Source: Strigamia acuminata (lineage: Eukaryota). Taken from it: a stretch of 64,000 bases of DNA. The notes under the pieces were generated by a model. That model searched no databases and was not told the DNA's origin. It saw only the letters and a program-made list of their open reading frames with translations. The position numbers and the translations under genes were made by a program. Positions within the stretch are counted from its first letter, which is position 1. Each line of letters begins with the position of its first letter. Positions 42,001 to 45,000 of the stretch are shown one piece after another. The DNA lies in assembly GCA_949358305.1 (NCBI GenBank), contig OX442314.1:18290001-18354000 (forward strand). The letters run 5' to 3'.

Positions 42001-45000
42001 TGAAGAACTCTGCCATGGTCATGTAAGTTTATACGAAAATAATTAGCTAAAAAAAAAAACTTAAATTTAAATATCTGAAAAAAAAAATTAAGAATATACT
42101 GATTTATTGACGCCATGGACAGTGTGTCTGTTATTAAATCGTTTCCGACTTTCCCCGTTGATTTTAAGCACAATTTTTGTTTTTATTTGTTATTTTTCGA
42201 GACTTTTAAAGAATTTTTAAAGTTTTTTTCAAATTTATCTCTTCGTATTAATTACATAAGTGGGGAGAAGTTATCAAGGCACGTGGTATGTGCTTGACAT
42301 TGCGTATGGTGAAAATCCTTGATGTTAGTTAGACAGATGAGCGATTTGATGAGGGTGAGTCAGGTGTCTTGAAGGCGTCCCTGGAAGCAGGACGCGAGGA
42401 CATTGGCTCATCAGCGTTTTCATAATACTCGAGTTGATGCATCGCCTGAAATGACGACGAACCAAACCAGCTTGCACCTCGGTTAGAAGTCACAAGTTGC
42501 ACGTTAGAAGTTCCACGTAGGGACAGGTACCATCCCTCCCACAATCCCCTCTGAGGAATGCTGTTTGCCCATTTAACCCTTTGGGATTTGTAAAACGCTC
42601 GAAGGACGCGCTTTTTCCTATTCCACTCAATTTCCCGAGCGAGGATTCCATCATGAGGTCAGTGACATTTGAAAAAATGTATTTTAAGTTTAATAATTCG
42701 ATGGGAATCGGTGGTGGGAGCAAAGAGTTTTCTCGGTTTGAGGTGGGTTCGGCAACTCGTTGGTTTCACGCGGTTTCACCACAGGAGCTGGTGCTAGGGT
42801 TGGGTAAGAATGTAAAAATTCAAAATGGTTTCGTGATGTAACTCTTGTGGCTGTTGAAGCCTGTTTGGATGATTATAAAATAATGATTTCATTACTACTG
42901 TCAAGCTCGAAGAGATTTGGTATTTGTGCCAGCTGATTCCATACTCCTTGGGAATTTTACGCTGCTTGCTTGTACTTGTAGTTAAGCAAGCAGCGTTATA
43001 TAATTAGCGCTCTTTCTTCAAGGTCTGAAAATTCAGGGAAGCAGGCAAAGTAAATACCTGTTTGAAATATTTCCTGCTGATAAGTTTTAAATTTTCGAGG
43101 CGAAGAAATGTGGAAAATAAATAAATAAACTTTTGTGGGATTTTTTTTTGTGTGGTTTGTTTTGGTTTTGATTTTTTTGTTTATTTTGTTGACAGGACTA
43201 TTCAGGATCCAGCCAGTCAACGGCTGACATGGTACAAACCGCCATTTTCCGTCTTGGTGATCAAAAAAGTGCGGGATGCAGCTGTTATACAGCCGTTTGT
43301 TGATTTGGTCAATTGGCTCATAACGGTACATCATTATTTTTTTCAATTTAGTCAATTAATTTTATTAATTTTTATTTTATTTTATTTATTCAGGCTAAAC
43401 GGATGATGGTGTTTGTGGAATCATCAATTATGGATGATCACATTCTATCTGGCAGTCAGCTGTTTCTGCCAGTCAAGGATAAACTAATGACTTTCAAAGA
43501 AGGCAAAGATGATCTCACTGATAAAATTGATTTTATCATTTGTTTGGGAGGCGATGGAACACTTCTCTATGCATCTTCCTTATTTCAAGTGCTTACATAA
43601 TTTGTTTATTTGTAAATATTGTAATTATTAAAGAGAAAAAAATTGTTTTTATTTCAGCAAAGTGTTCCACCTGTTATGGCATTTCATTTGGGTTCTTTGG
43701 GATTTCTCACACCGTTTGAATTTCATAATTTCGAAGAACAAGTGACAAATGTTCTGGAAGGTAAAAAAAAAAAAACTCGGTAGATTCACCATCTTGAAAA
43801 TTAAAGCAATTTCAACATTGGTTCAATCAAATCCGTTTATCGTTTTTCTAATCTATATACACATGTTCAAGTTATATAACTTAGATTGAGTAAGAATTAA
43901 ATTTAATTTAATTTAATCAATGATTTATTTTGACAGGTCACGCTGCTCTCACTTTACGCAGCAGATTGAGATGTATCATTTTGCGAAAAAGCGAAGAAAA
44001 GTCTAGTAAACCACCCACAAATCTTTTAGTTCTTAATGAAGTTGTGATCGACCGTGGGCCGAGCCCTTATTTGTCCAATATCGATCTGTTTTTAGATGGA
44101 AAACTCATTACTTCTGTCCAAGGAGATGGTCTGTTATCAAATTAGATAAATATTCCCTTCACTTTCTCACACTTTTGTTTATTTACAGGTTTGATCGTCT
44201 CCACACCGACAGGTAGCACTGCCTACGCTGTCGCTGCAGGGGCTTCGATGATCCACCCGAGTGTTCCAGCTATAATGGTCACGCCTATTTGTCCTCATTC
44301 ACTGTCGTTTCGGCCTATTGTCGTTCCGGCGGGTGTAGAGTTAAAGGTATGAAAGAAATTGGAAAGAAGGGTGTTTTAGGAAGAAAGTAAAAGTGGAAAA
44401 AGAAAGAAATGAAAATAAAATTTTAAATGTCATCAGATTATGGTGTCACCTGACTCCAGGAACACAGCTTGGGTTTCGTTTGACGGGCGCAAGCGACAAG
44501 AACTGTCTCATGGGGATAGGTAGGTGGTGCCGGGATATTATTAGCACCATCTAGCCACCATTTAATAATCTGATTAGTGAAAACTTAGTGCAATGTTTTG
44601 TGTTGTTTTTGTGTTGTTTAAAGTGCATGATTTGCAGATTATGTTAAATCCTGATGCGCGAAATACAGCATGGGCGTCGTTTGATGGTCGTTATCAACAG
44701 GAGCTTGTCGTTGGCGATAGGTGTGTTTTGTCGCAAACTTGTTTGTGGCCGGTGATGGGAATTGCAGTTGCTTAATTCGTAGAAATTTTAAACCAAAAAT
44801 TAATTTGGTGGCTGGGTTGTGCTTGTGTTCAATCGGGAGTTTGGTTCGGAAAAGTAATGTTTGTTTTTATGCCTCTTGTTTCTTCTTCTTCCAGTCTTCG
44901 CGTCACTACATCTATTTATCCCGTTCCATCCATCTGTTCGCAAGATCAAATAAGTGATTGGTTCGACAGTTTAGCCGAATGTCTTCATTGGAATGTGAGA

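What the first reader, a model, noticed from the sequence alone, without database searches (positions are those of the whole stretch)
44520..44815. Competing RNA pairings that could choose between the NADK exons
Seen: UAGGUGGUGC (44521-44530, intron positions +2 to +11 of the exon A donor) pairs for 10 contiguous bp (one G-U) with GCACCAUCUA (44544-44553), which would hide the exon A donor. The overlapping CUAGCCACCA (44551-44560) pairs for 10 bp (one G-U) with UGGUGGCUGG (44806-44815), extended by UUAAU (44562-44566) with AUUAA (44799-44803). That long helix would loop out exon B. Both are GC-rich islands in AT-rich introns, and the two helices share 3 nt. The 118-nt A-B intron is longer than typical introns here, so steric exclusion is unlikely. 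Established: docking/selector pairings control mutually exclusive exons in arthropod Dscam, 14-3-3zeta and Mhc. Inference: the local hairpin favours B and the long-range helix favours A, coupling donor masking to exon looping.
Basis: partly seen in the sequence, partly recalled or inferred. Interest (0 to 1): 0.8.

Follow-up and report, generated by a model that had tools for sequence, protein, structure and literature searches.

The report
RNA switch at NADK twin exons
An insect NAD kinase gene carries two interchangeable 83-base exons that are used one at a time, and intron segments beside them can pair in two rival ways that are predicted to decide which exon is kept; this kind of splicing control is known from other genes and is untested here.

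Summary
The long-range helix is 18 nt long with 17 pairs (44543-44560 x 44806-44823). It therefore covers the whole 3' arm of the donor hairpin (44521-44530 x 44544-53), not 3 nt, so the two full helices cannot coexist.

Exons A (44437-44519) and B (44638-44720) are real alternatives. Spliced contigs of a related species show upstream exon-A-last exon and upstream exon-B-last exon in 2 of 6 runs, and the A form in all 7 runs laid. No A-B joint and no skip-both joint was seen.

The A/B pair is old: it occurs in four other arthropod lineages and in Timema.

The helices are rare by chance:
- Long helix: 4 of 2000 shuffles.
- Hairpin: 12 of 2000 shuffles.
- Both on the same arm: 0 of 6310 placements in the window.

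Folding gives the two states about equal weight.

Function is still inferred. No intron of a close relative could be obtained. The four distant lineages show no comparable helix. The 83-nt length alone makes wrong products end early.

Verdict: a plausible, untested new member of the docking/selector class. It is closest to Drosophila srp and human ATE1.

The parts
44189..44346 (+). Constitutive NADK exon upstream of the pair (ends with the ...VELK codons)
   Evidence: Spliced contigs join about 44346 to the start of exon A (joint 44344->44435, cut +2). The translation is 98-100% identical to arthropod NADK.
44437..44519 (+). Exon A, 83 nt, first of the two alternative exons
   Evidence: Borders AG|..|GT. 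Joined to the last exon (44517->44893, cut +2) in all 7 runs laid.
44638..44720 (+). Exon B, 83 nt, second alternative exon; 54 of 83 nt identical to A
   Evidence: Joined to the last exon (44718->44893, cut +2) and preceded by the same upstream-exon end as A in runs X2 and X3 of a related species.
44895..45099 (+). Last coding exon, with the stop codon at its end
44521..44530 (+). E1: selector 1, intron positions +2 to +11 after the exon A donor; 5' arm of the donor hairpin H1
   Evidence: 10 bp with 44544-44553. Hairpin energy -15.1 kcal/mol. Reached in 12 of 2000 shuffles.
44543..44560 (+). E2: shared docking element in the A-B intron; pairs with either E1 or E3
44806..44823 (+). E3: selector 2, in the intron after exon B (86 nt after its donor, 71 nt before the last acceptor); 3' arm of long helix H2
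   Evidence: 17 of 18 positions pair with E2; duplex energy -28.0 kcal/mol. Reached in 4 of 2000 shuffles.
44562..44566 (+). 5-bp A-U extension of H2 (partner 44799-44803)
   Evidence: Pairing probability only 0.2-0.45.
44799..44803 (+). Partner of the A-U extension
44432..44441 (+). Exon A acceptor (last 5 intron nt plus first 5 exon nt); 5' arm of helix I3
   Evidence: 10 perfect bp with 44565-44574. Present in the MFE of the 471-nt fold. Reached in 14 of 2000 shuffles. Pairing probability 0.3-0.38.
44565..44574 (+). E4: 3' arm of I3, 5 nt after E2; 8 of its 10 nt are also complementary to the exon B acceptor
   Evidence: The complementarity to the B acceptor is read from the sequence.

Best explanation
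Two tandem 83-nt exons of an insect NAD kinase gene are spliced one at a time, and a shared intron element (E2, 44543-44560) is predicted to act as a docking site whose choice of partner would decide which exon is kept.

Predicted state 1:
- E2 pairs locally with the first bases of the intron after exon A (E1, 44521-44530). This would hide the exon A donor from U1 snRNA.
- The nested helix I3 (44432-44441 x 44565-44574) would hide the exon A acceptor.
- Exon A would then be skipped and exon B used.

Predicted state 2:
- E2 pairs over 17 bp with E3 (44806-44823), downstream of exon B.
- This would free the exon A donor, loop out exon B in a 245-nt loop, and bring the A donor near the last acceptor.
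- Exon A would then be used.

Shown: the exon pair and its mutually exclusive use, the complementarities, their rarity by chance, and the near-equal predicted free energies of the two states.

Inferred: that the helices form in vivo, that they act on U1 binding and exon definition, and that their balance sets the A:B ratio.

The 83-nt exon length, which shifts the frame if both or neither exon is kept, would act as a backstop.
For: 1. Mutually exclusive use.
- In runs X2 and X3 of a related species, two 132-nt contigs carry exon A or exon B. Each is preceded by the same 22-nt upstream-exon end and joined to the same last exon.
- The A form is in all 7 runs laid, including X11 of the window's own species.
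- No A->B joint and no skip-both joint is listed.

2. Geometry. E2 pairs with E1 (10 bp) and with E3 (17 of 18) using the same bases.

3. Rarity by chance.
- H2 is reached in 4 of 2000 shuffles and 21 of 3156 placements.
- H1 is reached in 12 of 2000 shuffles and 22 of 3156 placements.
- I3 is reached in 14 of 2000 shuffles.
- H2 is the only outlier among 7 adjacent intron pairs of the gene.
- The shared-arm pattern occurs in 0 of 6310 placements.

4. Thermodynamics.
- In 471-nt and 614-nt pre-mRNA segments, P(H1) is 0.45-0.56 and P(full H2) is 0.44-0.61.
- The forced ensembles differ by at most 0.2 kcal/mol.
- The trimmed coexisting form is about 2 kcal/mol worse.
- I3 nests with H1 and crosses H2.

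5. Precedent.
- In Drosophila srp, a helix between the inter-exon intron and the intron before the next constant exon is required for inclusion of the first variant (PMC4691838, sections 5 and 7 read).
- In human ATE1, two selectors compete for one site between the two exons (PMC7797038, passages read).

6. Exon conservation. Exons A and B differ from the relative's at 3 of 166 nt, against 67 of about 985 nt in the other exons (Fisher p 0.008). This is as expected for regulated alternative exons.
Against: - No conservation could be shown. RNA contigs of the relative do not cover the introns, and no closer genomic sequence was reachable.
- Four other lineages with the same A/B pair (L004, L007, L010, L011-13) have no exceptional helix. 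With the first 120 nt of the A-B intron, the observed score was reached in 133, 132, 191, 242 and 189 of 300 shuffles. With whole introns, 0 of 8 region pairs were better than 4 of 40 shuffles. So NADK exon choice does not generally need such a helix.
- Whole-region folding energy is ordinary.
- Donor pairing probability is only marginal against shuffles (24 of 300).
- The predicted balance depends on the segment folded: in a 316-nt segment H2 takes about 0.97 and H1 0.03.
- Double inclusion puts a stop three codons into exon B, and double skipping puts one in the last exon. Apparent exclusivity therefore needs no RNA structure.
- All the tests were designed after the helices had been seen.
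Confidence: 0.5

Rival explanations
1. The complementarities are neutral accidents of this lineage's introns. Mutual exclusivity comes from the 83-nt exon length: keeping both or neither exon shifts the frame, and the truncated products would be removed or useless. The A:B ratio would be set by splice-site strength and protein factors.
For: - Double inclusion or double skipping gives early stops.
- Four other lineages keep the A/B pair without a comparable helix.
- Two of them have an A-B intron of only 54-56 nt.
- Whole-region fold z-scores are ordinary.
- The donor pairing probability is reached in 24 of 300 shuffles.
Against: - Three separate helices each reach p below 0.01.
- Two of them share one arm, a pattern seen in 0 of 6310 placements.
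- They sit exactly on the exon A donor, on the exon A acceptor, and around exon B.
- The intron pair around exon B is the only outlier of 7 in the gene.
Confidence: 0.33
2. Only the long helix E2-E3 matters. It would loop out exon B and bring the exon A donor close to the last acceptor, like stem II of Drosophila srp. The donor hairpin and the acceptor helix would be incidental.
For: - H2 is the strongest and least chance-like element: duplex energy -28.0 kcal/mol, reached in 4 of 2000 shuffles.
- srp stem II has the same geometry and the same effect (PMC4691838, section 7 read).
- The A form is the one seen in every run.
Against: - H1 uses the same bases of E2 and lies on donor positions +2..+11, and it is itself rare (12 of 2000).
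- The two states are predicted to be isoenergetic.
Confidence: 0.12
3. The inverted repeat flanking exon B serves another purpose: back-splicing of exon B into a circular RNA, or a double-stranded substrate for editing.
For: The only support is the geometry, with inverted complementary segments in both introns flanking one exon. That such repeats promote back-splicing is general knowledge that I recall.
Against: - No back-splice or strand-change joint was listed in the 7 runs, although contigs drop rare forms.
- An 83-nt exon would make an unusually small circle.
- No A-to-G differences could be read, because the helix lies in uncovered intron.
Confidence: 0.03

Closest known systems
Bidirectional RNA pairing in the Drosophila serpent (srp) exon 4.1/4.2 cluster (Yue et al. 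2016, PMC4691838; abstract and sections 5 and 7 read)
   Same: - Both have two tandem alternative exons.
- In both, a helix between the inter-exon intron and the intron before the next constant exon loops out the second variant. In srp it is required for the first variant; here H2 has that geometry.
- In both, a second helix loops out the first variant (here I3).
- In both, the two helices cross, so they would form a pseudoknot if both were present.
   Different: - In srp the two helices use four separate conserved elements. Here one element (E2) is shared by two rival partners.
- Here the rival of the long helix is a local hairpin over the donor of the first variant.
- The upstream arm of I3 is the exon A acceptor itself, not a site next to the upstream constant exon.
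- srp is backed by conservation across Drosophila and by mutation and rescue experiments. This case has neither.
Competing R1-R3 / R3-R4 structures at human ATE1 exons 7a/7b (Kalinina et al. 2021, PMC7797038; abstract and passages of sections 14, 15 and 19 read)
   Same: - One docking element sits between the two alternative exons.
- Two similar selectors compete for it.
- The selectors overlap splice signals.
- The isoform ratio is proposed to follow the difference in helix energies.
   Different: - ATE1 selectors lie just upstream of each exon, over the 3' splice sites. Here they lie downstream: one over the exon A donor, the other 86 nt after exon B.
- ATE1 also has a 30-kb helix.
- ATE1 elements are conserved in vertebrates and were tested.
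Docking site / selector sequences of insect Dscam1 exon 6, 14-3-3 and Mhc clusters (recalled; only search listings of Dscam papers were seen)
   Same: One docking site, several selectors, and only one pairing at a time in a cluster of duplicated exons.
   Different: - In the Dscam exon 6 model, as I recall it, each selector sits upstream of its exon and pairing activates that exon.
- Here pairing is predicted to repress: one helix masks a donor and the other loops out an exon.
- Here there are only two variants.
Tandem-duplication origin of competing structures (Ivanov and Pervouchine 2018, PMC6071210; abstract read)
   Same: - The two selectors lie downstream of their respective duplicated exons.
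- They are 8 of 10 identical over the bases that pair with the same docking positions (read).
   Different: - The selectors do not lie at the same distance from their exons (+2 against +93).
- The exon duplication is far older than any alignable intron sequence, so this origin cannot be traced.
Stem-loops that hide a 5' splice site, such as human MAPT exon 10 and SMN2 exon 7 (recalled; no call)
   Same: A local hairpin starting a few bases into the intron would limit U1 snRNA access to an alternative exon's donor.
   Different: As I recall them, those cases are simple cassette exons without a competing long-range partner.

Membership tests
Docking/selector (competing RNA pairing) control of mutually exclusive exons | A cluster of tandem, homologous, equal-length exons of which exactly one enters the mRNA | tested here: met
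   - A and B are both 83 nt, with 54 of 83 nt identical.
- The A form and the B form each lie between the same flanking exons in X2 and X3. Only the A form is seen in the other 5 of the 7 runs.
- No A-B joint and no skip-both joint is listed.
- Caveat: the B form was seen in a related species, not in the one run of the window's own species.
Docking/selector (competing RNA pairing) control of mutually exclusive exons | One intronic docking site complementary to two or more selectors, so that only one pairing can form at a time | tested here: met
   E2 (44543-44560) pairs with E1 through 44544-44553 and with E3 over its whole length. Forcing both in trimmed form costs about 2 kcal/mol more. This is shown in silico only.
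Docking/selector (competing RNA pairing) control of mutually exclusive exons | Complementarity beyond what chance gives | tested here: met
   - H2 is reached in 4 of 2000 shuffles and H1 in 12 of 2000.
- In same-geometry placements, 21 and 22 of 3156 reach them.
- H2 is 1 outlier among 7 intron pairs.
- The joint pattern occurs in 0 of 6310 placements.
Docking/selector (competing RNA pairing) control of mutually exclusive exons | Pairings conserved in related species, with compensatory changes | tested here: inconclusive
   - No intron of a close relative was available; the RNA contigs leave the introns uncovered.
- Four distant lineages with the A/B pair show no exceptional helix.
- The ATE1 paper states that such structures are usually not conserved over long distances (PMC7797038, discussion passage).
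Docking/selector (competing RNA pairing) control of mutually exclusive exons | Disruptive mutations change the exon choice and compensatory mutations restore it | not testable with these tools
   This needs a minigene or genome editing.
Dscam exon 6 type (selector upstream of each variant; pairing activates it) | Each selector lies just upstream of its own variable exon and the docking site lies next to the constant exon | tested here: not met
   E1 lies on the exon A donor, E3 lies 86 nt downstream of exon B, and the docking site lies between the variants. The definition of this type is recalled.
srp-type downstream pairing (stem II) | A helix between the inter-variant intron and the intron before the next constant exon that loops out the distal variant | tested here: met
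   H2 encloses exon B in a 245-nt loop. The definition is from PMC4691838, sections 5 and 7.
5' splice-site masking hairpin | The stem includes intron positions contacted by U1 snRNA (up to +6) | tested here: met
   H1 pairs +2..+11, with mean pairing probability 0.89 for +1..+8 in a 60-nt context. This is in silico only and is only marginal against shuffles (24 of 300).

The most novel reading that the evidence does not exclude
A 32-nt intronic hub (44543-44574) works as a two-state switch for an ancient, so far undescribed pair of mutually exclusive exons in insect NAD kinase. In one state it hides both splice sites of exon A, the donor through H1 and the acceptor through I3. In the other it forms a 17-bp bridge that loops out exon B. 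The two states are tuned to nearly equal free energy, so small inputs such as transcription speed, helicases or temperature set the ratio of two NADK isoforms that differ in 27 residues of the catalytic C-terminal domain.
Probability: 0.3. Interest if true: 0.6.

Novelty: new member of a known kind. Interest (0 to 1): 0.45.

Why it matters
NAD kinase makes NADP, the source of cellular NADPH. A conserved choice between two versions of a 27-residue segment of its catalytic domain suggests two enzyme forms with different properties across insects.

Three literature searches found no description of this exon pair. At least one public gene model (Timema, P0121) fuses both exons and the intron between them into one reading frame, so current annotation misses it.

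If the RNA switch is real, it would be a compact case with short introns, about 400 nt in all. Donor masking, acceptor masking and exon looping would be combined on one docking element. That size suits minigene and structure-probing tests of how competing helices set isoform ratios.

If it is not real, it is a useful warning: helices rare at the 0.1-1% level can occur next to alternative exons without conservation.

Tried and rejected
- Whole genome of the window: none is held.
- The look-up of sequencing runs: no RNA holder is listed on record. The runs used are only guessed to be RNA, though their contigs are spliced at GT..AG borders.
- Intron cover in those contigs: none over 44520-44637 or 44721-44892. 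One 36-nt piece at 44393-44428 belongs to an unrelated contig. The relative's E1, E2 and E3 could therefore not be read. This absence of cover is not evidence of anything.
- Reading E3 of relatives through run-through ORFs (the 107-aa ORF 44776-45096 as query): 182 hits, none extending in frame over the E3 region of a close relative.
- Genome-contig scan: only bacterial NADK. Viral-contig scan: two unrelated hits.
- Rfam on 44200-45200 at E<=1: no match.
- Earlier findings of this scan: nothing on this genome. One unrelated note on a protein kinase A gene in another genome was not used.
- An apparently conserved donor hairpin: the MFE folds of L004 and L011/L013 also put the exon A donor in a short hairpin. 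Pairing probability is no higher than in shuffles (195 and 96 of 300 reach it), so I rejected this as evidence.
- The 10-mer TGGTGGCTGG of E3 also stands in the B-last intron of L010. Exact 10-mer matches between these sequences are common (blastn-short E = 28), and L010 has no matching docking helix. I treat it as chance.
- L011 against L013: 94-95% identical in introns, too close for a covariation test.
- RNAduplex on whole introns gave a sprawling, meaningless duplex, so I replaced it with an ungapped helix score.
- timed out. One search gave no answer and was rerun in smaller form.
- One search folded 44515-44820, which cuts off the last 3 nt of E3. Its picture of both helices coexisting is an artefact of that cut (compare).
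Full report
WHAT IS THERE

The window is AT-rich eukaryotic DNA. Positions 43190-45100 hold the 3' half of an NAD kinase gene on the + strand. Its exon translations are 85-100% identical to arthropod NADK. The best named match of the last exon is a stick insect, Timema (88%), so I treat the source as an insect.

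Spliced contigs give the exon borders. After the constitutive exon 44189-44346 come two 83-nt exons, A (44437-44519) and B (44638-44720). Both are flanked by AG and GT. They share 54 of 83 nt and have parallel 27-residue translations. The last coding exon is 44895-45099.

The three introns here measure 90, 118 and 174 nt. The gene's other introns measure 60-176 nt.

THE OBSERVATION

One correction matters. The long-range helix does not stop at 10 bp. The repeat finder and my helix scan extend it to 18 nt, 44543-44560 (E2) with 44806-44823 (E3). It has 17 pairs, two of them G-U, and one C-U mismatch.

E2 therefore contains the whole 3' arm (44544-44553) of the donor hairpin formed with E1 (44521-44530, intron +2..+11). 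The overlap is 10 nt, not 3, so the two full helices exclude each other.

The exon A acceptor (44432-44441) pairs perfectly over 10 bp with 44565-44574, which lies 5 nt after E2. This helix (I3) encloses exon A, nests around the hairpin, and crosses the long helix.

IS IT MORE THAN CHANCE?

I scored ungapped helices with G-C 3, A-U 2, G-U 1 and mismatch -4.

- E2-E3 is the best helix between the two introns. Its score of 37 is reached in 4 of 2000 dinucleotide shuffles. It is reached in 21 of 3156 placements of the same geometry elsewhere in the window, on both strands.
- Among the 7 adjacent intron pairs of this gene it is the only outlier: z 4.4, against -0.6 to 1.4 for the others. The borders I used for the first intron were off by a base or two.
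- The donor hairpin (score 24) is reached in 12 of 2000 shuffles and 22 of 3156 placements.
- I3 (score 22) is reached in 14 of 2000 shuffles.
- A long helix whose arm also pairs with the first bases of the upstream segment occurs in 0 of 6310 placements at the observed scores. It occurs in 2 of 6310 at relaxed scores of 33 and 20.

Against this:
- The folding energy of the whole region is ordinary (z -0.79 and -1.05).
- The pairing probability of donor positions +1..+8 (0.89) is reached in 24 of 300 shuffles, because this G-rich donor pairs easily with anything.
- All these tests were designed after the helices had been seen.

ARE THE EXONS REALLY ALTERNATIVES?

The look-up of sequencing runs listed no holder on record as RNA. 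However, the contigs of runs X1-X6 (coded organism A, a relative with about 3-10% exon divergence) and X11 (organism B, near-identical to the window) are spliced at GT..AG borders. I laid 7 runs.

- All 7 join exon A to the last exon (44517->44893, cut +2).
- X2 and X3, from two different studies, also hold a second 132-nt contig with exon B joined to the same last exon (44718->44893).
- In both runs the A contig and the B contig start with the same 22-nt loose end. That loose end is the relative's version of the end of the upstream exon: it differs from the window at 4 positions, all silent.
- Contig depths were 76.7 (A) against 32.6 (B) in X2, and 156.5 against 72.1 in X3. The tool warns that contig depth is a poor measure.
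- No contig joins A to B or skips both. Contigs drop rare forms, so that absence is weak.
- Exon B use in the window's own species was not seen, with one run laid. Exon B there is intact and differs at 1 of 83 nt from the expressed exon of the relative.

THE PAIR IS OLD

Of the 25 metagenome loci I examined, six genomic ones carry an A-like and a B-like 83-nt exon in tandem: L004, L007, L010, L011, L012 and L013.
- L011 and L012 are near-identical, and L013 is 94-95% like them. That makes four lineages.
- Their A-B introns are 1409, 54, 56 and about 2260 nt long.
- A Timema gene model contains both exons, and another protein in the collection is a B-form transcript.
- Two arthropod-like loci, L009 and L016, have a single exon.

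Three literature searches found no description of this exon pair.

PREDICTED BEHAVIOUR

- The hairpin alone folds at -15.1 kcal/mol.
- The E2-E3 duplex is -28.0 kcal/mol.
- In pre-mRNA segments of 471 and 614 nt, the partition function gives the hairpin 0.45-0.56 and the full long helix 0.44-0.61.
- Ensembles forced into one or the other state differ by at most 0.2 kcal/mol.
- The trimmed form with both helices (7 + 10 bp) is about 2 kcal/mol worse.
- I3 goes with the hairpin, at probability 0.3-0.38.

The balance depends on the segment. In 316 nt without exon A, the long helix takes about 0.97. The coexistence seen came from cutting E3 short.

MECHANISM (INFERRED)

State 1: hairpin plus I3. 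It would cover donor positions +2..+11 and the acceptor of exon A. U1 and U2AF would then be kept off, exon A skipped, and the upstream exon joined to B.

State 2: the long helix. It would release the exon A donor, enclose exon B in a 245-nt loop, and bring the A donor within about 90 nt of the last acceptor, so A is used.

The hairpin can form as soon as 35 nt of intron are made, while E3 appears about 260 nt later. Transcription speed could therefore bias the outcome.

Keeping both exons puts a stop three codons into exon B. Keeping neither puts one in the last exon. Errors would thus be non-productive whatever the RNA does.

CONSERVATION

This is the weak point.
- The relative's introns are not in its RNA contigs.
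- My attempt to read E3 through run-through ORFs failed.
- Scans of prokaryote and viral collections returned nothing useful.
- In the four distant lineages no helix between the A-B intron and the intron after B stands out. With the first 120 nt, the observed score is reached in 133 (L004), 242 (L011), 189 (L013), 132 (L007) and 191 (L010) of 300 shuffles. With whole introns and the upstream intron, 0 of 8 region pairs do better than 4 of 40 shuffles.
- Short donor hairpins appear in the MFE folds of L004 and L011/13, but they are not above chance.
- A shared 10-mer of E3 in L010 is at chance level.

So the switch, if real, belongs to this lineage, and NADK exon choice does not generally depend on such a helix. 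The ATE1 authors note that competing structures are usually not conserved over long distances (PMC7797038, discussion passage). The negative result therefore lowers the claim but does not refute it.

One supporting detail: exons A and B differ from the relative's at 3 of 166 nt, against 67 of about 985 nt in six other exons (Fisher p 0.008). This fits extra constraint on alternative exons.

COMPARISON WITH KNOWN SYSTEMS

The closest experimentally proven case is Drosophila srp. There, a helix between the 4.1-4.2 intron and the intron before exon 5 is needed for exon 4.1, and an upstream helix is needed for 4.2 (PMC4691838, sections 5 and 7). H2 and I3 have these geometries.

Human ATE1 has one docking element between two exons and two competing selectors (PMC7797038). 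Here the selectors lie downstream of the exons, and one of them is the donor region itself.

The Dscam exon 6 layout, as I recall it, is not met.

The two selectors are 8 of 10 identical over the bases that pair with the same docking positions. This fits, but cannot prove, the duplication origin proposed by Ivanov and Pervouchine (PMC6071210, abstract).

VERDICT

I put 0.5 on a working switch, 0.33 on neutral complementarity with frame-based exclusivity, and the rest on variants. It would be a new member of a known kind of system, in a gene where neither the exon pair nor its control appears to have been described.

Noticed in passing
window 45100-45171: An intron starts immediately after the stop codon (TAG at 45097-45099). 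It is spliced in the X11 contig of the window's species (joint 45097->45170, cut +2). In the relative's contigs this stretch is replaced by 80 other letters. A junction right after the normal stop would mark earlier stops, from double inclusion or skipping of A/B, as premature.
   Followed up: partly
window 44437-44519 and 44638-44720: Exons A and B differ from the related species' transcripts at 2 and 1 of 83 nt. Six neighbouring exons differ at 67 of about 985 nt (Fisher p 0.008). This suggests extra constraint on silent sites of the alternative exons.
   Followed up: partly
window 44488-44500 and 44704-44716: A 13-nt stretch inside exon A is 85% complementary to a stretch inside exon B (inverted repeat I2). 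Its significance was not tested.
   Followed up: no
window 43194-43196: Contigs of the related species reach the exon starting near 43196 from at least two different upstream sequences (loose ends). This suggests alternative first exons or promoters of NADK. One of them matches the coding stretch near 41886-42026 of the window.
   Followed up: no
P0121 (Timema tahoe UniRef model): This public gene model reads exon A, the intron between the exons and exon B as one continuous protein. It is an annotation error that hides the mutually exclusive pair.
   Followed up: no
L007 7549-7602; L010 4571-4626: In two other arthropod lineages the intron between the A-like and B-like exons is only 54 and 56 nt. 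That is short enough that crowding of the splice signals could help keep the two exons apart there.
   Followed up: no
P0001 (Drosophila willistoni, 860 aa): The protein contains two complete NADK units in series, each with an A-type segment. It is probably a fused model of two tandem NADK genes.
   Followed up: no
window 44565-44572 and 44635-44642: The element that pairs with the exon A acceptor is also complementary over 8 bp to the exon B acceptor, because both exons start with the same bases (read). It could therefore mask either acceptor.
   Followed up: no
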